Shown piece by piece: positions 2,077-56,307 of a stretch of DNA of 64,000 nucleotides. Under the pieces are notes generated by a model, which was not told the origin of the DNA, did not search any database, and saw only the letters and a program-made list of their open reading frames with translations. The translations under genes and the position numbers were made by a program. Within the stretch, counting starts at the first letter, position 1. The number at the start of each line of letters is the position of its first letter. The stretch is from an uncultured virus (IMG/VR IMGVR_UViG_3300030104_007230) (taxonomy: Duplodnaviria > Heunggongvirae > Uroviricota > Caudoviricetes), in the IMG/VR virus record IMGVR_UViG_3300030104_007230, positions 1 through 64,000 of that record; one strand, written 5' to 3'.

Positions 2077-2080
2077 GAAA

Positions 2081-2140
2081 CGTTCACTTTACTTAACAGT
2101 AAAGCGCAGGTCGATTCAAGCCAGGGAACGGGGACTTGAG
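2081..2140 (+). ncRNA. Glutamine-II (Downstream-peptide) riboswitch
   Basis: P1 CGTTC/GAACG, P2 CTTTACT/AGTAAAG then CGC, pseudoknot TTCAAG/CTTGAG; directly upstream of a YRG-motif peptide, as is typical for this class. Confidence 0.88.
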
Positions 2141-2159
2141 CATTATTTACATTAGAAAA

Positions 2160-2315
2160 ATGAGTTGTTCACTTACTTATCGTGGAGTTAAGTACTCCAA
2201 AGAAGATCTTCAAGAAGCAGTTGCAAAACATGCTACAGAATTAACGTCTTCAAAATCCCACTTGATTTATAGACGTATTAATTATCGTCCTGAAATATCT
2301 GTAACTAAAGAATAA
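2160..2315 (+). CDS. DUF4278-like small protein (51 aa)
   Basis: Hand translation MSCSLTYRGVKYSKEDLQEAVAKHATELTSSKSHLIYRRINYRPEISVTKE; LTYRGVKY motif plus degenerate second copy LIYRRINY; below the ORF-track cutoff. Confidence 0.85.
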   Translation: MSCSLTYRGVKYSKEDLQEAVAKHATELTSSKSHLIYRRINYRPEISVTKE

Positions 2316-12245: not shown

Positions 12246-12507
12246 GATTTAGTTTATAAAGCGAAGAACTAATGATAATAATCAAGGATAAATATCCTAT
12301 TAGATCTGAATAATCCATCATTTAAAGCCAAATAATAAGAATAAGGAAAGAATTATGGAGATAGATTCCATAATTGCACGTAGTAGTAGCAAGGGAACTG
12401 AGTTTGTCATAATAATGTGCAGTCACTGAAGACTGCTGAAAATCTAATAGACTTTAAGCAACCATCAAGTACCTTTTAATACTTTGGAATCATTAAGCAA
12501 AGATAAA

Positions 12508-12538
12508 GAGCCAGAGAAGAAGATCTCCCCTGGCTTTT
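12508..12538. terminator. Hairpin AGCCAGAGA...CCCCTGGCT, possible bidirectional terminator or processing stem
   Basis: Inverted repeat directly after the stop of 12542-12796, with U-rich flanks. Confidence 0.45.
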
Positions 12539-12541
12539 AAC

Positions 12542-12796
12542 TTAAGAAGTAGCGTAGCCTTTCAGATTAATTCCAATATTATTCTGAAGCTTGTACCCTT
12601 TCTTTAATAAATTAGCAACCGACATTCTAATTACCTTTAAAGGTGCTTCTAGTCGGATGTATTTAGATGTTGCAGTAGCAGGATCGATGTTAGTCATTTC
12701 TGCAAAGCAACGATTATCATCAGAACTATCACGTCTTACTGTTACCAGAAAAGCATCGTGGTCATTCTTCTGATAGATAAAAGATTCAGTAGTCAT
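12542..12796 (-). CDS. Hypothetical early protein (start MTTESF)
   Basis: The track N-terminus MRDSPSLCT is a read-through of the repeated leader element. Confidence 0.65.
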   Translation of the reverse strand: MTTESFIYQKNDHDAFLVTVRRDSSDDNRCFAEMTNIDPATATSKYIRLEAPLKVIRMSVANLLKKGYKLQNNIGINLKGYATS

Positions 12797-12810
12797 AAGA
12801 CTAATTGTAG

Positions 12811-12878
12811 GTGTACAAAGGGAGGGTGAGTCCCTCATGGAGTTAACTCTTTCGAGAATAACTCCAAGAGAAAATCAA
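12811..12878 (-). repeat. Structured leader, family I copy 1 (long hairpin plus CTTTGTACAC box)
   Basis: TGATTTTCTC-TT-GGAGTTA-TT-CTC-GAAA-GAG-T-TAACTCC-AT-GAGGGACTCA-CCCTCC-CTTTGTACAC; box ends 14 nt before ATG. Confidence 0.85.
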
Positions 12879-12892
12879 ACATTCAGCAATAA

Positions 12893-13249
12893 TTAGGGCT
12901 TCATAGGAGTATCATCAGTCCAATGATCAATCTTGTTAATATCTAATATGAACCAAAATTGGTTCTTTAATCTATTCCAAAAAGAATAAGATTTGATAGG
13001 TTTAGAAATAGATTTCCATTGGGAAGCTCTGCCTCTGGTGGATGCATACCAGAAACCTTGCTTTTCATCAAATTTGTCTGGATTAAAACCTGCTTCTCTA
13101 GCTTCGTATGGAAGAGGTTTGTTAAACATCCAATCAAATGATGTATTAATCTCTTTATTAGCCCATTTACTGAAAGCAAGAGCTTCTTCTTTCGTTTGAA
13201 ATTTGATACGTTCTCTTTCAACGAAAGTTCCGTAAACGTAATAAGACAT
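12893..13249 (-). CDS. Hypothetical early protein (start MSYYVY)
   Basis: ATG lies 14 nt after the CTTTGTACAC box, the same spacing as copy 1. Confidence 0.65.
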   Translation of the reverse strand: MSYYVYGTFVERERIKFQTKEEALAFSKWANKEINTSFDWMFNKPLPYEAREAGFNPDKFDEKQGFWYASTRGRASQWKSISKPIKSYSFWNRLKNQFWFILDINKIDHWTDDTPMKP

Positions 13250-13263
13250 TAGATAAAATTTAA

Positions 13264-13324
13264 GTGTACAAAGGGATGGTGAGTCCCTCAGTCTGCCCCC
13301 GAAGGAGCAGAGGGAGAGAATCAA
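13264..13324 (-). repeat. Structured leader, family I copy 2
   Basis: TGATTCTCTC-CC-TCTGCTCC-TTCG-GGGGCAGA-CT-GAGGGACTCA-CCATCC-CTTTGTACAC; different upper stem with a UUCG loop. Confidence 0.85.
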
Positions 13325-13467
13325 GTTTCAGTCTTAGAGATTGTATTTTGGATACGTTTCCAAATACGCTCTTTAGCTCTTTCCATTTCCACAGCATTAA
13401 GAACACGCTTTGGCAGTAAAGACCTTAAGAAATCCTCTTCAACATCTTGAAAACTACGTTTAGTCAT
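13321..13467 (-). CDS. Small basic protein (48 aa)
   Basis: Hand translation MTKRSFQDVEEDFLRSLLPKRVLNAVEMERAKERIWKRIQNTISKTET; its TGA starts the family I stem. Confidence 0.6.
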   Translation of the reverse strand: MTKRSFQDVEEDFLRSLLPKRVLNAVEMERAKERIWKRIQNTISKTET

Positions 13468-14102
13468 TTAACTTCCACAGTTTCGATACGATGTTTCATA
13501 TCTTGTAGCCAATTAGAAACTTTAGGTGCAAGATCTGCATAAACTTTCTTGGCATCAGCTACTAAATCATTCCATTCCTTACTATGTTCATCAACACGTA
13601 GTTTCAAATCGCTTTGATAACTAAGTCGTTGATTCCCAAAGAATGGAATGACTTGTGGAACTCCTTGCTTAAGAGAAGCAATATGTTCTTCTAAGTTTGT
13701 AATTTTGGCTTCTAAAGCAGCCGTCTTTTGTGCATCCATTTCGTTTAGTTTAGTCATTAGTAATTCAGCTTTCTTCTTTCCAGAATAAGCGAAGGATAGT
13801 TCAACAGCTTGTGCTGTTAATACTTTATCCTTCTCTACTAACGCTTCACTAGCAGACTTAAATGCTTTATAAAACGATAATTTAGACCCTTTCTGATACT
13901 CAGGTAGCTTATTTAGCTCTTGAGATTCAGTAAGAGGTTTCTTCTTACTATTAAATGTCTCTTCTTTAATAGTGTCTAATTCTAATACTGGACTAGGTTC
14001 TATTAAAGATGACTTTTCAGTAGTAACAGAGGTGTCAGCCACAACTGAAGCTAAAGAAGTATGTTGTCTTCTTGCTCGCTTGGAGGATGATCTTCGTGAC
14101 AT
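13464..14102 (-). CDS. Coiled-coil hypothetical early protein
   Basis: 212-aa ORF, Arg-rich N-terminus, heptad-like central region. Confidence 0.7.
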   Translation of the reverse strand: MSRRSSSKRARRQHTSLASVVADTSVTTEKSSLIEPSPVLELDTIKEETFNSKKKPLTESQELNKLPEYQKGSKLSFYKAFKSASEALVEKDKVLTAQAVELSFAYSGKKKAELLMTKLNEMDAQKTAALEAKITNLEEHIASLKQGVPQVIPFFGNQRLSYQSDLKLRVDEHSKEWNDLVADAKKVYADLAPKVSNWLQDMKHRIETVEVK

Positions 14103-14122
14103 AAGTCAGAAGGCAAAGGACA

Positions 14123-14149
14123 TGAGCAGTTTGAAGACTTGCTCAGGTC
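14123..14149 (-). ncRNA. H-type pseudoknot module (family III copy 1)
   Basis: GAC-C-TGAGCA-A-GTC-TTCAAAC-TGCTCA: S1 GAC/GTC, S2 TGAGCA/TGCTCA. Confidence 0.7.
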
Positions 14150-14152
14150 AAA

Positions 14153-14197
14153 AGTTGAGGGAGGAATTGAACCTCCCCAAAGTCACTAGACTCAACT
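14153..14197 (-). ncRNA. tRNA-like T-loop three-way junction (family II copy B)
   Basis: AGTTGA-GTC TAGT GAC-TTT-GGGGAGG TTCAATT CCTCCC-TCAACT, 5 nt after the SSB stop codon. Confidence 0.75.
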
Positions 14198-14202
14198 CAC
14201 TG

Positions 14203-14565
14203 TTATGAAACAGCAGCAGTTTCGTTAGCTTCAGCACGTTGTGCTTTGCTAACTTCACCAAGGCGTAGAGTTGTAGGAGCATCAGTTACGATAACTTCCA
14301 TACGACTACGACGTTCACCATCTTGTGACTCCCAGGTCTTATAACGAAGCCTGAAAGTTACAGCGATTGTGTCACCTTGGTTATAACGATTAAGAATGCT
14401 GTTACCAATACCGTTATATGCAGTAAGAGGTAAAGCAGATTCTTCATCTGAACTGCCAACTGGCTTAATTCGAAACTCAGTTACAGTCAAAGAACCTTTA
14501 GGATTCTTCTGTGTAATTGGTGAGACGATAGTGCCAGTGATACCACCGAAGTTGGTAGAATTCAT
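14203..14565 (-). CDS. ssb: Single-stranded DNA-binding protein (OB fold)
   Basis: N...ITGTIVSP...VTEFRI...LTAYNGIG...QGDTIAVTFRLRYKTWESQDGERRSRMEVIV; GGAG upstream of ATG 14565; lacks the acidic DDDIPF tail. Confidence 0.85.
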   Translation of the reverse strand: MNSTNFGGITGTIVSPITQKNPKGSLTVTEFRIKPVGSSDEESALPLTAYNGIGNSILNRYNQGDTIAVTFRLRYKTWESQDGERRSRMEVIVTDAPTTLRLGEVSKAQRAEANETAAVS

Positions 14566-14581
14566 GGATAAACTCCATAAG

Positions 14582-14656
14582 GTGTACAAAGGAATAGAAA
14601 ACTATTCCAAGAACTGAAGGAGGAATTGCACCTCCTTAAAGCCTCTAGGCTCAGTC
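14582..14656 (-). ncRNA. tRNA-like T-loop junction (family II copy C, 14612-14656) plus hairpin and CTTTGTACAC box
   Basis: GACTGA-GCC TAGA GGC-TTT-AAGGAGG TGCAATT CCTCCT-TCAGTT, then GGAATAG-TTTT-CTATTCC-TTTGTACAC; compensatory changes versus copy B in all three helices. Confidence 0.75.
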
Positions 14657-14658
14657 TG

Positions 14659-15093
14659 TTAATAGCCTCGATAATCATCAAGGTTATCTACAGGATTCTC
14701 GAACTCATCTAGTTCTTCTGAATACCAAGCCATGTGATAACGTACAAAACCTACAATTTGCTCCCATGTCATATGATCCATAGGAGATTGCGGAGCTGTA
14801 CCAGATGCCAAACACATAACTTCATATGTAGTCGGATCTGCTGCTAATCCAAGGTTTCCATGTATTCCACTCTTATTGGGAGGCATGGTAACGATAGATA
14901 GCTTCAAAGGACCATATTGGTATGTCAAACGATAGCGAATACAACCACTTTCGTTACAACAAGTGAAATCCGAGGGTGTTACTTCATAAATAGGCTTAGA
15001 AGTAACAGGGATCTTTTGCATGGGCATTAGATCAAGTGGACTACTCTCAGTGAGTAGTAATGCCATGCCAGGAGATTTGATCTCCCAGCTCAT
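14659..15093 (-). CDS. Hypothetical early protein
   Basis: 144-aa ORF; its TAA begins the TAACAG that precedes family II copy C. Confidence 0.65.
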   Translation of the reverse strand: MSWEIKSPGMALLLTESSPLDLMPMQKIPVTSKPIYEVTPSDFTCCNESGCIRYRLTYQYGPLKLSIVTMPPNKSGIHGNLGLAADPTTYEVMCLASGTAPQSPMDHMTWEQIVGFVRYHMAWYSEELDEFENPVDNLDDYRGY

Positions 15094-15095
15094 GC

Positions 15096-15338
15096 TTATG
15101 ACATGGCAGATTCAGTACAAGACATCTCTTCATAGAAATCTTGCATAATCAAATCAATATCTTTTATAGATAAATGACATGCTTGTTGAATAGGTTTTGT
15201 ATCTATACAAACAGGCTCACCTCTATAATTAAATCTCCAATAAGACATAAAAGTTACACCTGGTTTGACTGGATACTCAACCCAGTCTTTAACTTTAGGT
15301 CTTGGATAAGATAAAGATTTGTAAGTAACAGTTGCCAT
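15096..15338 (-). CDS. Hypothetical early protein
   Basis: 80-aa ORF downstream of family I copy 3. Confidence 0.65.
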   Translation of the reverse strand: MATVTYKSLSYPRPKVKDWVEYPVKPGVTFMSYWRFNYRGEPVCIDTKPIQQACHLSIKDIDLIMQDFYEEMSCTESAMS

Positions 15339-15346
15339 AGTAAATA

Positions 15347-15418
15347 GTGGGCAAAGAACAAGGGAGTGAATCCCTCATGGAGCCAACTCTTTCGAGAATG
15401 ACTCCAGGAGAAAGTCAA
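15347..15418 (-). repeat. Structured leader, family I copy 3
   Basis: TGACTTTCTC-CT-GGAGTCA-TT-CTC-GAAA-GAG-T-TGGCTCC-AT-GAGGGATTCA-CTCCC...CTTTGCCCAC; the TGA is the upstream stop codon. Confidence 0.85.
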
Positions 15419-15726
15419 GAAGCTACTCCAGCTGAAGTTTCTTCTGATTTATCAGCTATAAAGTCAGGCACTACAACTACATTCTGCTTTGCAGCTTTAG
15501 CAGTTGTCTTCTTAGCACGAGGCTTTCTAGTTGACGTAGCCTTTCCAGGCTTCTTCTCATCTTCAGGTCTGATTAGATCAGCAAGTTTAATCCTGCTATT
15601 TCTAATCTGAGTTTTCACAGTGGCATGTAACTTAGATTTCTCCTCTTTATCAGATTTGATATAAGCCCATGTAGCTGCTCCAACTCCTATGCTCACAGAA
15701 GCGAGCAAAACGAAAGAAGTTTTCAT
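15415..15726 (-). CDS. First early gene: N-terminal TM helix plus Lys/Ala-rich histone-H1-like tail
   Basis: MKTSFVLLASVSIGVGAATWAY...KKPGKATSTRKPRAKKTTAKAAK. Confidence 0.7.
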   Translation of the reverse strand: MKTSFVLLASVSIGVGAATWAYIKSDKEEKSKLHATVKTQIRNSRIKLADLIRPEDEKKPGKATSTRKPRAKKTTAKAAKQNVVVVPDFIADKSEETSAGVAS

Positions 15727-15746
15727 GGTGAAAGATGTAAAGAACA

Positions 15747-15826
15747 TAAATAGTTTTAAGACATATTCAGGTCAAGACCGAGTAAAGGAATCGAACCTTC
15801 CTAGTCTTTCGACTAGCCATCTCGGT
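15747..15826 (-). ncRNA. tRNA-like T-loop junction (family II copy A, 15777-15826) followed by a pseudoknot (family III copy 2, 15747-15773)
   Basis: ACCGAG-ATGG-CTAGTC GAAA GACTAG-G-AAGG TTCGATT CCTT-TA-CTCGGT, then GAC-C-TGAATA-T-GTC-TTAAAAC-TATTTA. Confidence 0.75.
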
Positions 15827-15841
15827 TACTCATTCAGGTAC

Positions 15842-16050
15842 TTTCCAGTCGTGGACTAGAAAAATAGACGCAGGCTTATTAAGTTACCTGCTACTTATGT
15901 AAGTTATACAGAAAGATCAAAAACCTAACTATCACTAGTCTTATAGGTTTTCCACACGTTCTGCCGAACATAAGACCTTTCAAGAAAGGCGACTCATCTT
16001 CAGGCGGCCCCATCCCATCTAAGATGAGAAAGTGACGAGAAGATAGGGAC
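15842..16050 (-). ncRNA. Multi-helix structured leader or ncRNA at the start of the early transcript
   Basis: Helices CTCATCTT/AAGATGAG, GCCTTTC/GAAAGGT, GTCTTAT/ATAAGAC crossing AAAACCT/AGGTTTT, GCAGG/CCTGC, TTTCTAGTC/GACTGGAAA; no ORF in the track. Confidence 0.55.
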
Positions 16051-16462
16051 ATTTAGGGGTAAAAAAGGCATAAATACCTAGTTTTATACCAAAATGAGTC
16101 ATTATTCATTCATTTGTGATGCGTTAAAACTTTCCACGATGAAGTTTTACTAATACAAAACAAATTAAAAGAGGAATAAATCCTTTACTTAAAGACTTAT
16201 TCTCTTTAGTTTTGAACGTAGTCATAATTAAAAGAATAATTACATTAAAAAAAATAGAACTCCTTCGCTTCGCTACAGGTACGGACGTTGGATGCATACC
16301 ACCGTCCTCTTTCTTTTTTTTCTCTCAGCAACACTCTTAAAGAGTATTACTCCAGATGTAAAAACGAGATTTCACCCCAAATTGGTAGTTTTAATGGAGG
16401 TTTGGGGGTAATTAGTAGGTTGGTACAACTTAAAATTAATAAATCAAGCGTTTTATAGATAG

Positions 16463-18999
16463 ATGCCCGTATCTCCACAAGAATTTTCGCTCTGGGCGAA
16501 GATGACAGGTCGTAAATATCCTAATTCTTTACAAGAAAAGGCCGAATTAGCTCCTGAAGTACATATTTTCAACCAAAATGTGGGGAAACAAGGGGGAATA
16601 GGGGTAAATGAGGTCGAAATTCCCAATACTTTCAATTCTTCTGGCACACAAACGGTAGAAACAACTTCACCGACCATGAACGATGAAAATCCTGAAAATA
16701 AAGAGAATTTAGGTTCAAATTTAGGCTCAAAATTAGCAAAGAGTGCTTTGATCGCAGGAGGACTTGCCGCGGGGGTCGCTGCCGCACGTAATCCAGGTGT
16801 ACAAGAGGTAGTGAAGAATACATCAGAAAAAATTGGCGATTTTATATCTAAATTTACTGATCCACGTGAAATAAACATCGATACTCTAGAAGCGGCGCAA
16901 GATATAACAAATTCAGCACCTTCAGATATATGGGATCAAGCAGATGTATATTCTCAAACAAGACCGTTTGATGGGGGCTTTTCTGAGCCTAATATTGATC
17001 CTTGGGCTGGTCCTGAGACAAGATCTTCTAGATTATTAAGGGGAACAGGGATTGGAGGTGCAGGAGATAAAGCAACAGCATTACTTGCTGAAATTAGTGA
17101 AAAATACCCTGAATCTGCTACATCTGGTGAATATGTACATCCATCACGTATTTCTGGGATGCCAGGGGGCGATTATCGTGGAAGAAGAATCACTTATAGC
17201 CCTGAACAAAAAGAAGCATTTAATTTAACAAAACAAGAAGCAGATACAAGAGCAATTTTAGGTAATGAAGGGGAAATTCCTCCTGGAATGCTTACTAAAG
17301 AACAACAGGCTTATTTGAAGCTTAATGAGTTAGGTGGAGAAACATTACAAGCTGGTAAAAAAAGAGATTTAGCTAATGTCGAAGCTTCAGGGGAGTCTGG
17401 GGTATCAGGGGGTTCTGGCGGAACTGGACAGAAAAATTTAAGTGGTCAAGCAGATGACTTCATTGGAAAAATGCAAGGACCAATGCCTCCTGAAATAAGT
17501 CTTAAAGAAGCTAATTCAATGCAAGAAGATAGACATAGCATGGAAAGAGAATATCGTGATAAATTTATTTTAGAAAATAGAGAAGCTATCGAGAGAGGTG
17601 ATATAGATCCTTATTCAGAACAACATTTCTTTAATCAACCTAGTTTGAGTGATATTTATCCAAATCCTTGGGCAGAAGATCATGAAGACATAATAAGAGA
17701 TGCAGTAAGGTATGAAGGAGCAACAGGATATAAAGATAGAGATCGAGTTAGTGGCTATAAATATGCAGATATTCAAGATAAGTTAAATGAACTAAGTGGA
17801 AAAGTTGATCCTGCTAGACAAGAAATACTTGACATTGTTTCAACAGGAGAATTTGCAAGAGGAAATAGAGAGGCTATGGCAAGAAATGTATGGGAAGCAA
17901 ATCTAAAAGAAAAAAGTCTAAGTGAAAAAGCTGATGCAGTAGTCGATGCAATAGTTGAATCACATTCAGATTTTGGAAATGTAACTTATAACGAACCTGA
18001 AGCCATAGAATCAGCTAAAGCACATTATGGCGAAAATCCTGTAAATACGGCACTTATCAGTCCAAATACACCTGGAAATAGTGTTGTAACGATTGATTCA
18101 ACAAATGATCCAACAACATCAACAGGACAACATCAAATCAAGTTAGATGCAGATNNNNNNNNNNAAGAGCAGAACTTGGTGCAAAAAGAGCACAAATAGC
18201 TGAAAATACTGGTTTATCAAATCCAGCTGTAGATCGTTTCTTGGGACAATACTTCCCATCTATGACAGAAACATATAGTGATGTAGATATTGCATCTGGA
18301 AGAACTCCTGAAAGAACATTTTCTAATGTTGGACCTGAAGCTGAAATAACAAAAGCTGCTAGTGGCGGAGCTATTCGAGGACGTTCAAGAGTACAGGATT
18401 ATGAAGTTAGTCAAGATCGTACAAGAGATATTTCACCAGAACCAGAAGAACTAAGAGGTACTCCTTTAGCAGAACAAAGACCTGACATTATTGGTGGAAA
18501 ATTAGCGCTTGGTGGTGTTCCTGGAGATTTAGATACAGATCAGATGTCAAAACAAGAAGTTATTCAATCAATTATTAATCCTTCAACTGTAGATCTTAGA
18601 GATAAAACTCCTATTGCAGGAACTGGAGTTTATGGGAGAGAGAAAGGATATGTTTCAGGTGCGATGAAAGCTTCAGGAGATTATTCTGATGCCGCAATGA
18701 GAAAGCCAACTGATCTTTCTCCAGCAGAAACAAGGTATGACAGCTTTATTAAAGATCCTTATGGAGGACTTTCTGATAAAGCATTAGAAACACATATACA
18801 AAGTGCTACACCTGATTCACCTTCACAGAAAGGATTAGAGCGTGAAGCCTATAAACGAAGTGGTACTGGTATTCCTATTTCTCAAAAAATGAGAGAAATT
18901 CATACAACAGGAGATCCTTTAACAAGAAGCGAACGTGCACAAACTTTTCTTGATGAACTAGATCCAACAGGAGAACTTCGTAAAAGAAATTTAGGTTAA
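16463..18999 (+). CDS. Large acidic low-complexity virion/internal protein; one gene split by the assembly gap
   Basis: After the N-run the frame ...RAELGAKRAQIAENTGLSNPAVDRFLGQY is open straight into track ORF 18241-18999. Confidence 0.7.
18155..18164. other. Assembly gap (10 N)
   Basis: nnnnnnnnnn in the sequence. Confidence 1.
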
Positions 19000-43385: not shown

Positions 43386-44498
43386 ATGGCTCTTACTAAA
43401 CTTGACGGATCAGCTTTAGGACCTACTGCTCAGGATCTTTTAGGATCAAGAAATTTGATAATTAATGGAGCATTTCAAGTTGCTCAAAGAGGAACGTCGT
43501 CTACAGCTACTGGTTATCAAACAGTTGATAGATGGGGTGTGAGCTTTAGTGGAACAGATGAAGCACCTACTCAATCACAACATGATTTAACTTCTAGTGA
43601 TACTGGGCCTTGGGCTGCTGGATTTAGAAAGTCATTTCATATAACCAACGGCAATCAAACTGGTGGAGCTGGTGCAGCCGATGCTATAGAAATGTATATG
43701 ACTCTAGAAGCTCAAGATATAGCAAACTCTAGTTGGGATTACACATCAAGTTCTAGTTATATAACATTTTCATTCTGGGTTAAATCAAGTGTTGCTCAAA
43801 ACTTTTATGGTTGGTGGAAAACATCTGATGGAACCTCTCAACTTTATGCTTTTGAGACTGGTTCATTAACTGCTGATACTTGGAAAAAAGTAACTGTAGA
43901 AATTCCTGGTAATTCTAATCTTCAGTTTGATAATAATAATGAAGCTGGTTTTCATGTCAGAATTATTCCTTTTAATGGTACAGATGAAACTGGCTCAATG
44001 AGTTTGAATACTTGGGCTGCTTATAATAGTTCAGTAAGAAACCCAGATCAAACTTCAACTTGGTACACAACCAATAATGCAACCTTTGAGATTACAGGAG
44101 TTCAGTTAGAAGTAGGAAATAGTGCAACAGAATTCGAACATAGATCCCTTGCTGATGAATTAGCTAAGTGCCAAAGATATTACTATGTACATGCTAATGG
44201 TAATGATAAACCAGTTATGACTAGTGCCAATTATAGTACTACTGCTATTTTTGGTCTGATTCCGTTCCCCGTTGAAATGAGAACATATCCAACACTTGAG
44301 GCTACAACAGGGACAAATTATTTTAGAGTTTATGCAAATTCAACAAATGATCTTTTTGATAATTTAGGTCTGCAAGGCAGCTCTACTACTGGGTATATTC
44401 TGCAAGGTGATACAAATCTAAGTGTAACAGCAGGTCAAGGTTCTTGGGTGCAAACTGCAAATGCAAGTGCTAAAATAGCTTTTAAAGCAGAGCTTTAG
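43386..44498 (+). CDS. Tail fibre/receptor-binding protein with a carbohydrate-binding-like domain
   Basis: RNLIINGAFQVAQRGTS...DRW...ITGVQLEVG..ATEFEHRS..DELAKCQRYY. Confidence 0.85.
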   Translation: MALTKLDGSALGPTAQDLLGSRNLIINGAFQVAQRGTSSTATGYQTVDRWGVSFSGTDEAPTQSQHDLTSSDTGPWAAGFRKSFHITNGNQTGGAGAADAIEMYMTLEAQDIANSSWDYTSSSSYITFSFWVKSSVAQNFYGWWKTSDGTSQLYAFETGSLTADTWKKVTVEIPGNSNLQFDNNNEAGFHVRIIPFNGTDETGSMSLNTWAAYNSSVRNPDQTSTWYTTNNATFEITGVQLEVGNSATEFEHRSLADELAKCQRYYYVHANGNDKPVMTSANYSTTAIFGLIPFPVEMRTYPTLEATTGTNYFRVYANSTNDLFDNLGLQGSSTTGYILQGDTNLSVTAGQGSWVQTANASAKIAFKAEL

Positions 44499-55028: not shown

Positions 55029-56307
55029 CCATCTTGAATAGTTTTCTTTTCATTTTTATCGTAATGAATAAGAGATAGATAATTAGGATCTTGAAGTATA
55101 AAGAGCGCTTCTATTTTCGGATTGATTGTCTCAGCTTTTACTATAGCTTTACGCATGATATCAGCTAATTCTTTCATATCTCTGCTGCTCATATCTTCTA
55201 TTGCATTTGCTAAATGTTCAACTGTTAAATAAAACATTGTATTATCTTCTGATTTAGGAGCATAAACTATTGCACCAGCGCCTTCTGCATTATAAAATTT
55301 TTCATAAAATTCAGCCATATCTATAGTTATCCTTTCGATAACTAAATTAAGCATTTTTTGTTCTTCTTCAGACGGATTTGCTTTTAGTAGTTTGTTTAGG
55401 ATTTTCTTTCTGCGTTCTGTCATTTTTTATGTATTTAAAAAGATCGGAATTTTTTAGTGTGTTATGAAGTTTAGGTAAGCCGCGATAAAGAACAACTGGT
55501 TTACCTGCATTACCAATTTTCTTTACTAACTTACCACTAGAATCTCTAACTTTGATTAACTCTTCCTGTCTTAAAAGGTACTCTGCAACACAACGATAGC
55601 GACGTTTTGAATTTAAATCAATATCTGGAAAACGATCGCAAATTGTAGCTGCTTTCATATCACTGAAAGCTATGCGTATCTGATCTGCTAGTGATAAACC
55701 TAAAACCATATCATTAGTGGACGTTTCATAGCTTTGAATTAATTCTAAATATCTTCTTAGATCAGCATTTTCAAAACTACCTGAAGGAGGTATAAACATT
55801 TCAACTTGTGTTGCCAAAGAAGAAACTAATTTTTTTTCATAGTTTTTAATAGTTACACTATCAATATCTAATTCTCTAAAACGATAACTTTTATATTTTC
55901 TAACTGGTTCTAATTGTGCAATATTATCTTTATCTTCTGTAAGACACCAATCTACAAAATCCATATATAACCATTTTAATATTTTTATCTTAACGTTTTT
56001 CTAGGTATTTGCACCATTGTTTTTCATGTTCAATTTTTAAAACCCATTCTAAATAATTTCTTTTAGGTTCTATATCTTTAAAATTACCTGGTTTAGGTTT
56101 ACCACCATAATTGGCTGCTTCCCATAAAGCTTTTGCAATTTGCCTTTGTTGTTGAGTAGAAAGTTCTTTAAAAAGTAATTCTTCTGGCATTGATTTTAGA
56201 AGTTTGCTAAACTCTTCACTATCAGGAGAACATTTTTCATTATGAATAGAGCTATCACTTGGGCTGAATTGTTGCTTATTTTGTTTCTTGTTCCTATCGG
56301 ATTCCAT
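55025..56307 (-). other. Three hypothetical genes (55025-55423, 55368-55964, 55990-56307)
   Basis: Co-oriented ORFs; 55368-55964 may end in a winged-helix-like region. Confidence 0.65.

What the first reader, a model, noticed from the sequence alone, without database searches (positions are those of the whole stretch)
14153..15826. Three mini tRNA mimics (closing stem, small hairpin, perfect T-arm), two placed right after stop codons
Copies at 14153-14197, 14612-14656 and 15777-15826 each have a ~6-bp closing stem, a short hairpin, and a T-arm with a 7-nt T-loop (GG-TTCAATT-CC, GG-TGCAATT-CC, GG-TTCGATT-CC). B and C share TAACAG...hairpin(TAGW loop)-TTT-T-arm, with compensatory changes in all three helices (AGTTGA/TCAACT vs ACTGA/TCAGT; GTC/GAC vs GCC/GGC). 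There is no anticodon arm and no CCA, so these are not tRNA genes. An acceptor-like stem stacked on a T-arm is the established recognition unit of RNase P and RNase Z. Inferred roles: processing signals, or released decoys for tRNA-targeting defence nucleases.
Basis: partly seen in the sequence, partly recalled or inferred. Interest (0 to 1): 0.8.

Follow-up and report, generated by a model that had tools for sequence, protein, structure and literature searches.

The report
Anticodon-less tRNA mimics between cyanophage genes
An uncultured marine cyanophage and its relatives carry a family of about 45-60-base RNA folds that copy only the top half of a tRNA, placed at gene boundaries of the early genes, most likely as signals that shape the ends of the phage's early messages.

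Summary
All three copies are at the stated coordinates, on the minus (gene-sense) strand. A fourth copy lies outside the window at 76126-76179 of the 86-kb phage record.

Each copy has a 6-7-bp closing stem, a variable linker and a T-arm. ARAGORN calls no tRNA. The family recurs in two IMG/VR relatives, in 13 of 19 marine metagenome loci searched, and as two divergent copies in the cultured Synechococcus phage S-EIVl.

Across 19 distinct full-length metagenome variants:
- T54, C56, A58, T60 and the G52-C62 and G53-C61 pairs are invariant.
- The remaining stem pairs covary (94% of cells paired against 84% in shuffles).

Every copy is sense to its flanking genes. Eighteen of 22 directly abut a conserved 23-nt promoter-like motif. 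A close relative lacks exactly "144-aa gene + copy B". One contig carries an A/B chimera with the crossover inside the T-arm.

Best reading (0.45): tRNA top-half mimics mark the 3' boundaries of early transcription units. They are probably read by host RNase P/RNase Z, as plant mitochondrial t-elements are, and are often fused to the next promoter-like motif as portable cassettes, as T4 PeSLs are.

Cleavage, termination and promoter activity are untested. The decoy idea has no support.

The parts
14153..14197 (-). Element A. 7-bp closing stem (AGTTGAG/CTCAACT), 14-nt linker with a 2-3-bp hairpin (loop TAGT), T-arm GGAGG-TTCAATT-CCTCC. Starts 5 nt after the SSB stop codon.
   Evidence: MFE equals this fold, -17.2 kcal/mol, z -2.3. 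Conserved in G001, G002 and 10 metagenome loci.
14129..14151 (-). 23-nt promoter-like motif TTGACCTGAGCAAGTCTTCAAAC, 1 nt after element A and 49 nt before the ATG of the 212-aa gene.
   Evidence: Promoter activity is inferred, not shown. The candidate -10 is non-canonical (one search does not list it).
14612..14656 (-). Element B. Closing stem GACTGAG/TTCAGTT (two G-U pairs), linker hairpin with loop TAGA, T-arm GGAGG-TGCAATT-CCTCC. Starts 2 nt after the stop of the 144-aa gene.
   Evidence: Present only where the 144-aa gene is present (window, L173). Absent together with that gene in L174, G001 and G002.
14591..14608 (-). Perfect hairpin GGAATAG-TTTT-CTATTCC directly after element B. It takes the place of the 23-nt motif that G001 and G002 have before the SSB gene.
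14659..15093 (-). 144-aa gene of unknown function, the cargo of the indel cassette [gene + element B].
   Evidence: no Pfam family; no relative found in viral contigs; indel boundaries.
15062..15107 (-). Plain hairpin spanning the stop of the 80-aa gene and the start of the 144-aa gene. It forms the left boundary of the indel. In G001, G002 and L174 the inner stem carries a compensatory change.
15776..15827 (-). Element C. 6-bp closing stem ACCGAG/CTCGGT, linker ATGG plus a 6-bp hairpin with GAAA loop, T-arm GAAGG-TTCGATT-CCTTT, 1-nt bulge. Heads the leftward early gene block.
   Evidence: z -2.75. Rfam tRNA-Sec 25.2 bits, below the gathering score of 47, aligned with the D and anticodon arms deleted.
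15753..15775 (-). 23-nt promoter-like motif TTGACCTGAATATGTCTTAAAAC directly after element C, upstream of the 110-aa first gene.
14203..14565 (-). 120-aa SSB-family gene lying between elements B and A. Used as the anchor to find relatives.
   Evidence: (PF00436).

Best explanation
The elements are RNA-level mimics of the top half of a tRNA, that is, an acceptor-like closing stem stacked on a true T-arm.

**What they do.** They are carried on the sense strand of the phage's early transcripts. They mark the 3' boundary of a gene or small transcription unit.

**How.** The invariant T-loop on a coaxial helix is the part of a tRNA that RNase P and RNase Z recognise. The most likely mechanism is therefore that the host's tRNA end-processing enzymes cut beside the element. 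This would give defined, structure-capped mRNA ends, as plant mitochondrial t-elements do. Some transcription attenuation by the same stable fold is possible.

**How they spread.** In the marine lineage the element is usually fused, with 0-2 nt between, to a conserved 23-nt promoter-like motif that serves the next gene. The pair behaves as a portable boundary-plus-promoter cassette. Its conserved T-arm also serves as a homology patch for gene gain, loss and duplication, as T4 PeSLs do.

**Shown:** the structure, the selection on it, strand, position, the fusion to the motif, the indel and the chimera.

**Inferred:** that it acts as RNA, that RNase P/RNase Z are the readers, and that the motif is a promoter.
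For: **Structure under selection.**
- In alignment A7 (29 hits, 20 distinct rows), 94.1% of cells pair, against 84.3% in shuffles (0 of 500 reach it) and 53-64% in slid controls.
- Nine of 14 pairs change on both sides. The smaller set gives the same picture.

**T-loop identity is kept while the stems diverge.**
- T54, C56, A58, T60 and the G52-C62 and G53-C61 pairs are present in 19 of 19 distinct full-length variants and in 10 of 10 copies of the three genomes.
- A and C fit the GGTTCRANYCC motif that was used to find t-elements (PMC1920247, passages read).

**Strand and position.**
- All 29 metagenome hits lie on the SSB strand. All 4 copies in the genome are on the minus strand.
- A and B start 5 and 2 nt after stop codons.
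- The two S-EIVl copies lie between small minus-strand CDS. One overlaps the stop codon.

**Long persistence.** S-EIVl shares only 64% TerL identity. Its two copies differ at 6 of 7 T-stem pairs, and all six differences are compensated.

**A boundary role.** In the more distant relative G003/L004, a canonical hairpin plus T-run terminator occupies the place of A after the SSB gene.

**Cassette behaviour.**
- 18 of 22 elements abut the motif.
- L174 (96.6% nt identity) lacks exactly the 144-aa gene plus B.
- L175 has two tandem SSB genes joined by an element whose 5' half is A and whose 3' half is B.

**No intact tRNA to decay from.** ARAGORN finds 0 tRNA or tmRNA genes in the phage or in 32 related sequences.
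Against: **No expression or end-mapping data.** Cleavage is untested.

**Geometry is not strictly tRNA-like.**
- The stack of closing stem plus T-stem is 12 bp only in A and B.
- It is 11 bp plus a bulge in C and D, 13-14 bp in three relatives' copies, and 10-11 bp in S-EIVl.
- The enzymes' ruler would therefore cut at varying distances.

**Position 55 is G in many copies.** It is G in 6 of 10 and 7 of 19 copies, whereas it is U in real tRNAs (recalled).

**No constant base 5' of the stem.**

**Weak folds.** The fold z-scores of D, D' and E' are only -0.6 to -0.9.

**C may not be transcribed.** C lies upstream of the only motif that serves the first gene, and I found no motif further upstream in the window. 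Its transcription is therefore not assured.

**The motif is not a canonical promoter.** Its candidate -10 does not fit TATAAT or TAnnnT, and the consensus scan does not list it. It could be an operator or part of the RNA.

**The chimera has a caveat.** It comes from one short metagenome contig. The shared identical stretch is only 17 nt, so misassembly is unlikely but not excluded.
Confidence: 0.45

Rival explanations
1. The elements are ordinary 3'-end structures: terminators, attenuators or exonuclease blocks. They work by stability alone, with no tRNA enzyme involved. The tRNA likeness would then be only ancestry from a phage tRNA gene.
For: - They sit between a stop codon and the next promoter-like motif.
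- A canonical terminator occupies the same place in G003/L004.
- A is followed by TTTT.
- PeSL stem-loops in this kind of position are effective terminators (PMC2839356, passages read).
Against: - A stability-only hairpin does not explain why six T-loop and closure positions are invariant in 19 of 19 variants while the stems change freely.
- The T-runs are short (2-4 T), and none of A, B or C passes the terminator scan.
- In the window, B precedes the SSB gene with no motif between them. An efficient terminator there would cut off SSB expression.
Confidence: 0.2
2. The elements are excised and accumulate as 45-60-nt stable RNAs, possibly CCA-tailed, that act in trans. They would work as sponges or decoys for a host tRNA-binding factor, such as a defence nuclease, a tRNA-modifying enzyme or SmpB.
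For: - Several copies per genome lie in the earliest-expressed region.
- In G002, L183 and L185, one copy (E') starts about 11 nt after the end of one motif and ends 2-4 nt before the next. This is the layout of a tiny stand-alone gene.
- Mycobacteriophage DS6A carries little more than a tmRNA tRNA-like domain, and such a molecule inhibits tmRNA (PMC4131195, passages read).
- t-elements can give stable RNAs carrying non-templated C/A (PMC1920247).
Against: - There is no anticodon arm, which is the usual target of tRNA-cleaving defences.
- No G3:U70 pair occurs in any of the 10 copies.
- No tmRNA family match was found at E up to 10.
- ARAGORN finds no tmRNA.
- Closing-stem sequences differ between paralogues, so there is no single tRNA identity.
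- There is no evidence that a small RNA accumulates.
Confidence: 0.12
3. The T-arm hairpin is the binding site of a phage or host protein that regulates early transcription or translation, for example an antitermination (nut/put-like) site or a translational operator. It would not be a substrate of tRNA enzymes.
For: - Loop sequence is conserved while the stems covary, which is typical of protein-binding hairpins.
- The elements always lie 17-55 nt upstream of the next start codon and beside a conserved 23-nt motif that has an internal inverted repeat.
- Most early proteins of the phage have no known family.
Against: - The conserved positions are precisely those of the universal T-loop, together with its G53-C61 closure and a stacked closing stem.
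- That match would be a coincidence for an unrelated protein site.
- No candidate RNA-binding protein was identified.
Confidence: 0.1
4. The elements are decaying remnants of phage tRNA genes, or leftover att-site fragments of host tRNA genes, with no present function.
For: - They look like tRNAs with the D and anticodon arms deleted. Rfam aligns C to tRNA-Sec in that way.
- tRNA-like attP sites are known in other viruses (PMC8707807, passage read).
Against: - Compensatory changes and an invariant T-loop are seen across 19 variants and across the distance to S-EIVl.
- Both strands of the closing stem are present, unlike a 3'-half att fragment.
- No integrase was found among the 115 of 157 ORFs scanned with Pfam or the 23 scanned with PHROGs.
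- The T-arm plus 3' strand of A/B matches no cyanobacterial genome among one genome for each of 185,579 species. The 2 hits were unrelated.
Confidence: 0.05

Closest known systems
Plant mitochondrial t-elements (tRNA-like processing signals; Forner et al. 2007, PMC1920247; wheat, Hanic-Joyce 1990 as cited there)
   Same: - Non-decoding tRNA-like folds built around the GGTTCRANYCC T-arm motif and an acceptor-like stem.
- Located on the sense strand beside mRNA ends.
- Proposed, and in part shown there, to direct RNase P and RNase Z cuts.
   Different: - Here the setting is a bacteriophage of cyanobacteria.
- The fold is much reduced: only a closing stem, a short linker and the T-arm, 41-61 nt.
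- Position 55 is often G.
- The element is usually fused to a promoter-like motif.
- It behaves as a recombining cassette.
- Cleavage is not shown.
PeSLs, promoter-early stem-loop cassettes of T4-like phages (Arbiol et al. 2010, PMC2839356; Comeau et al. 2014, PMC4122927)
   Same: - A composite intergenic unit of a stable structure plus an early promoter-like sequence.
- Clustered among small genes of unknown function.
- Marks indel boundaries.
- Chimeric copies arise by recombination between units.
   Different: - In PeSLs the structure is a plain G/C-rich stem-loop shown to terminate, and the promoter is a tested sigma-70-type promoter.
- Here the structure is a tRNA top-half mimic with an invariant T-loop.
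- The motif has no canonical -10.
- Neither function is tested here.
- The phage lineage (S-EIV1-like) is unrelated.
mascRNA/menRNA-type tRNA-like 3'-end modules and model RNase P minihelix substrates (recalled from general knowledge; named in earlier scan notes e1-3290562 and e1-6096598)
   Same: An acceptor/T-arm mimic inside a longer transcript is used as a handle for RNase P/RNase Z, so that a transcript end is made by tRNA enzymes.
   Different: - Those are eukaryotic cloverleaf-like modules or artificial substrates.
- None is a natural multi-copy family of a phage.
TLD-only (tag-less) tmRNA of mycobacteriophage DS6A (Hudson, Lau and Williams 2014, PMC4131195)
   Same: A phage-borne tRNA-like RNA without an anticodon arm, consisting of little more than an acceptor stem and a T-arm.
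   Different: - The tmRNA features are absent here: no G3:U70 pair, and no tmRNA call by ARAGORN or Rfam.
- There are several divergent copies per genome, not one gene.

Membership tests
Canonical tRNA gene | Cloverleaf with a D-arm and an anticodon arm, detectable by a tRNA finder | tested here: not met
   ARAGORN finds 0 genes in the window, the whole genome and 32 related sequences. The Rfam tRNA clan match is only 25.2 and 17 bits against a gathering score of 47, with the D and anticodon arms deleted.
Canonical tRNA gene | T-arm: 5-bp stem closed by G53-C61, 7-nt loop T54-(U55)-C56-R57-A58 | tested here: met
   Present in 10 of 10 and 19 of 19 copies, except that position 55 is G in 6 of 10 and 7 of 19.
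t-element-like tRNA processing signal | Acceptor-like stem plus T-arm carrying GGTTCRANYCC | tested here: met
   A and C match the motif exactly. B and D have G at the fourth base. The closing stem covaries.
t-element-like tRNA processing signal | Lies on the transcribed strand at mRNA boundaries | tested here: met
   All copies are sense to their flanking genes. They lie 2-5 nt after stop codons or between small genes. The true mRNA ends are unknown.
t-element-like tRNA processing signal | Cut by RNase P at the 5' end and/or by RNase Z after the discriminator | not testable with these tools
   No cleavage assay or end-mapping data are available.
PeSL-type regulatory cassette | Composite of a stable structure and an early promoter in one intergenic spacer | tested here: inconclusive
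   18 of 22 elements abut the 23-nt motif, and the motif lies 48-54 nt from the start codon. The -35-like TTGACC is present, but the -10 is non-canonical and is not listed by the scan. Promoter activity is untested.
PeSL-type regulatory cassette | Marks indels of small ORFs; recombination between copies gives chimeric copies | tested here: met
   The indel of [144-aa gene + B] is bounded by a hairpin and by B. An A/B chimera joins two tandem SSB genes in L175. This is a single contig.
PeSL-type regulatory cassette | The stem-loop acts as a transcription terminator | not testable with these tools
   No reporter or 3'-end data. T-runs are only 2-4 nt.
tmRNA tRNA-like domain (TLD-only) | G3:U70 alanine identity pair; recognisable tmRNA TLD | tested here: not met
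   The third pair is T-A, C-G or T-G in all 10 copies. There is no tmRNA family match at E up to 10. ARAGORN finds 0 tmRNA.
attP / tRNA-gene fragment | Identity to the 3' end of a host tRNA gene, with an integrase nearby | tested here: not met
   The pattern for the A/B T-arm plus 3' strand gives 2 unrelated hits and no cyanobacterium. No integrase was found in the ORFs scanned. The C and D types were not tested against host genomes.
Intrinsic terminator | G+C-rich hairpin followed at once by a T-run (at least 5 of 8) | tested here: not met
   None of the 6 terminator-like sites listed in 12500-16600 is A, B or C.

The most novel reading that the evidence does not exclude
A bacteriophage lineage has replaced ordinary terminators and RNase III-type sites with tRNA punctuation. 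Anticodon-less mini-tRNAs at early gene boundaries would be cut out by host RNase P and RNase Z. The cuts would define the phage's early mRNAs. The released 45-60-nt T-arm minihelices would then accumulate, perhaps CCA-tailed, and act on a host tRNA-binding factor. The same modules, fused to promoters, would serve as the homology blocks that shuffle early genes.
Probability: 0.3. Interest if true: 0.8.

Novelty: new variant of a known kind. Interest (0 to 1): 0.62.

Why it matters
tRNA punctuation of mRNAs is textbook for mitochondria and known for a few eukaryotic long RNAs. I found no description of it for phages.

If these elements are cut by RNase P/RNase Z, a phage lineage would be using the host's essential, hard-to-evade tRNA enzymes to organise its early gene expression. 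Anticodon-less tRNA mimics would then be a new class of phage regulatory RNA to annotate.

The fusion to a promoter-like motif, the indel and the chimera also point to a PeSL-like mechanism of gene shuffling outside the T4-like phages.

The family is present in a cultured phage-host pair: S-EIVl on Synechococcus PCCC-A2c. The question is therefore directly testable.

Earlier unchecked notes of this scan report similar modules in other phages, so the phenomenon may be wide.

Tried and rejected
**Searches that gave nothing useful**
- Rfam at gathering thresholds finds only a Glutamine-II riboswitch in the window.
- blastn of the 3-kb region against 50,697 phage records gave no match.
- The first IMG/VR pattern (ATTCC..TTGACCTGA) was too loose. 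It gave more than 118 stretches, none of them real.
- Two tighter patterns gave 7 and 16 loci. Only 3 and 1 of these were real, all from the two relatives already known. The rest lack the closing stem and the 23-nt motif.
- The 144-aa protein has no relative in viral contigs.
- The 578-aa neighbour is too poorly conserved to serve as an anchor.
- The SSB profile found the same three contigs in IMG/VR.

**RNA model limits**
- Models R1 and R2 match D and D' only in the T-arm.
- S-EIVl scored only 12-15 bits. Its second copy was found by eye and by a hairpin scan.

**Descriptors and expression**
- My loose descriptor (any 6-bp closing stem plus a T-like hairpin) is useless. It gives 7-16 hits per shuffled genome.
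- Sequencing runs: no RNA holder was listed. Read laying was not used, because only contigs were on offer.

**Steps that could not be done**
- Host relatives cannot be drawn for a virus record. The C and D types were therefore not compared with host tRNAs.
- The S-EIV1 genome paper (Chenard et al. 2015) is not held. I could not check whether it mentions these repeats.

**Readings rejected**
- tmRNA TLD.
- attP fragment.
- Readthrough signal: the in-frame codon after the next one following the SSB stop is again a stop.
Full report
**What the window is.**
- The window is the first 64 kb of an 86,161-bp IMG/VR virus record, rated 100% complete.
- It is a cyanophage. Its large terminase is 64% identical to that of Synechococcus phage S-EIVl.
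- It carries a Glutamine-II riboswitch, 2OG-Fe(II) oxygenases, an hli-like gene and a cyanophage outer-membrane-protein gene.
- Genes from about 16.1 kb down to 1 are on the minus strand. So are the genes in the last 22 kb. The finding therefore has to be read on the minus strand.

**The observation.**
I call them A (14153-14197), B (14612-14656) and C (15777-15826).
- On the minus strand each has a 6-7-bp closing stem, a linker and a T-arm whose 3' strand runs straight into the 3' strand of the closing stem.
- A starts 5 nt after the TAA of a 120-aa SSB-family gene. B starts 2 nt after the TAA of a 144-aa gene. C lies upstream of the first gene of the leftward block.
- ARAGORN calls nothing in the window or in the genome.
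- Rfam sees C only as a sub-threshold tRNA-Sec match (25.2 bits, gathering score 47) with the D and anticodon arms deleted.
- GGTKCRATTCC occurs 3 times against 0.07 expected.
- A strict T-arm hairpin filter finds 4 in the whole genome against a mean of 0.01 in 100 shuffles. All four are on the minus strand.
- The fourth copy, D, is at 76126-76179, outside the window. It lies between a 232-aa SSB-family gene and a DUF5895 gene.

**The family.**
- Two IMG/VR relatives carry the elements. G001 (22.6 kb) keeps A and a C-type copy. G002 (74 kb) keeps A, a C-type copy, D and a further copy, E'.
- An SSB profile search of metagenome contigs gave 20 loci. Model R2 found 29 elements in 13 of the 19 loci searched, all on the SSB strand. 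It found none in the six most distant or shortest loci.
- On that alignment (20 distinct rows), 94.1% of cells pair, against 84.3% in shuffles (0 of 500 reach it) and 53-64% when partners are slid. Nine of 14 pairs change on both sides. The alignment is fitted to the model, which favours the structure.
- The coordinate-based table of ten copies and the thermodynamic folds (z from -1.9 to -3.7 for five copies, but only -0.6 to -0.9 for D, D' and E') agree.
- In 19 distinct full-length variants, T54, C56, A58, T60, G52-C62 and G53-C61 are invariant. Position 57 is a purine and position 59 a pyrimidine. Position 55 is T in 12 and G in 7.
- The linker is free. It runs from 9 to 33 nt, with a hairpin of 0 to 7 bp and insertions.
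- The cultured phage S-EIVl has two copies on its minus strand, with T-loops at 43767 and 43473. They share the 5' linker. Their 7-bp T-stems differ at 6 of 7 pairs, all compensated, and the outer closing pair covaries as well. Both lie between small annotated CDS, and one overlaps the stop codon.
- No relative carries an intact tRNA or tmRNA gene.

**Context.**
- In the marine lineage, 18 of 22 elements are followed within 0-3 nt by a 23-nt motif, WWGACCTRA-N3-WGTC-NNW-AAAC.
- The motif starts with a -35-like TTGACC and sits 48-54 nt before start codons.
- It occurs only in the first 2.5 kb of the leftward block, and forms tandem arrays in G002, L183 and L185.
- I read it as an early promoter. 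However, its candidate -10 is not canonical and the consensus scan does not list it. This remains an inference.
- In the window, B has no such motif behind it. A perfect hairpin follows instead. D and both S-EIVl copies also lack the motif. The constant association across the whole lineage is therefore 'sense strand, between genes', not 'next to a promoter'.
- In the more distant G003/L004, a canonical hairpin plus T-run terminator stands after the SSB gene where A stands here.

**Cassette behaviour.**
- L174 is 96.6% identical in nucleotides around the SSB gene. It lacks exactly the body of the 144-aa gene plus B.
- That deletion runs from the end of a conserved hairpin, which holds the gene's start codon, to the last base of B. 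G001 and G002 lack the gene and B as well.
- L175 begins with the 3' end of one SSB gene, followed by an element whose 5' half is A and whose 3' half is B, then a second SSB gene and a normal A.
- This is what unequal crossing-over inside the shared 17-nt T-arm would give. It rests on one short contig.
- Gene content between the C-type copy and the SSB gene differs among relatives.

**Mechanism.**
- The combination of an invariant T-loop, covarying stems, sense orientation and boundary position argues for an RNA element read by something that recognises the tRNA top half.
- From established knowledge (recalled), RNase P and RNase Z accept acceptor/T-arm minihelices. Also recalled: cyanobacterial tRNA genes generally do not encode CCA, which fits the absence of CCA here.
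- Plant mitochondrial t-elements are the documented precedent. They were found with the motif GGTTCRANYCC, and their ends coincide with mRNA ends (PMC1920247, passages read).
- I therefore favour processing and end-definition by tRNA enzymes (0.45).
- Against a strict mimic: the helix stack is 10-14 bp, not always 12, and position 55 is often G.
- The rivals are stability-only terminators (0.2), trans-acting released RNAs (0.12), a protein-binding regulatory hairpin (0.1) and functionless remnants or att fragments (0.05).
- The att idea fails on three counts. Both strands of the closing stem are present. No integrase was found in the ORFs scanned (115 of 157 with Pfam, 23 with PHROGs). The A/B T-arm plus 3' strand matches no cyanobacterial genome.
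- The tmRNA-TLD idea (PMC4131195) also fails. There is no G3:U70 pair and no tmRNA match.

**Comparison and novelty.**
- The elements work most like t-elements and are packaged most like PeSLs (PMC2839356, passages read; PMC4122927, abstract). They are members of neither family.
- Full-text searches for tRNA-like elements in phages returned no description of such a family. The large survey of viral structured RNAs mentions tRNA-like candidates only in general terms (PMC10690425, passages read). Its supplements were not examined.
- Earlier unchecked notes of this scan describe similar modules in other phages. They agree with this reading but are not independent evidence.

Noticed in passing
window 2078-2140 (+) and ORF 2136-2312 (+): A Glutamine-II riboswitch (68 bits, gathering score 33) sits directly upstream of a 59-aa ORF with a weak DUF4278 match. 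Both lie on the strand opposite to the surrounding phage genes.
   Followed up: no
G002 73690, 73610, 73359 and 72949 (minus strand); L183 390-1153; L185 910-1671: Tandem array of three to four copies of the 23-nt promoter-like motif upstream of the first early gene. The motif holds an inverted repeat (AGAC-N8-GTCT) whose outer pair covaries (TGAC..GTCA against AGAC..GTCT), so it might be an operator or an RNA hairpin.
   Followed up: partly
L002 2000-2190 (G001); also L003 880-960: Four copies of a roughly 20-nt repeat (..AGCTGGA.GTTAAACGTAGC) in the non-coding stretch upstream of the C-type element. Function unknown.
   Followed up: no
L175 1-700: Two tandem SSB genes are joined by a chimeric A/B element. 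This is either a duplication by unequal crossover or, less likely, an assembly artefact.
   Followed up: partly
window 15062-15107 (-): A hairpin spans the stop of the 80-aa gene and the start codon of the 144-aa gene. Relatives carry a compensatory change in its inner stem (GGGAGAT/ATCTCC against GGGGGAT/ATCCCC). In G001 and G002 it takes the place of a tRNA-like element in front of the 23-nt motif.
   Followed up: partly
window 15345-15400 (-); L002 2600-2670: Conserved hairpins are followed by a leader TGTYCTTTGC upstream of the 80-aa gene. The same leader words recur after the 23-nt motifs.
   Followed up: no
KJ410740.1 54080-56620 (L125): The S-EIVl terminase CDS is 2541 nt, against 1524 nt here, and it matches in two pieces. 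This suggests an insertion of about 1 kb (intein or intron?). Model R2 gives a weak T-arm-like hit inside it at 55348-55380.
   Followed up: no
genome 76126-76179 (outside the window; L124 9965-10018): Copy D follows a second, 232-aa SSB-family gene, and copy A follows the 120-aa SSB gene. The link between SSB genes and elements may be coincidence.
   Followed up: no
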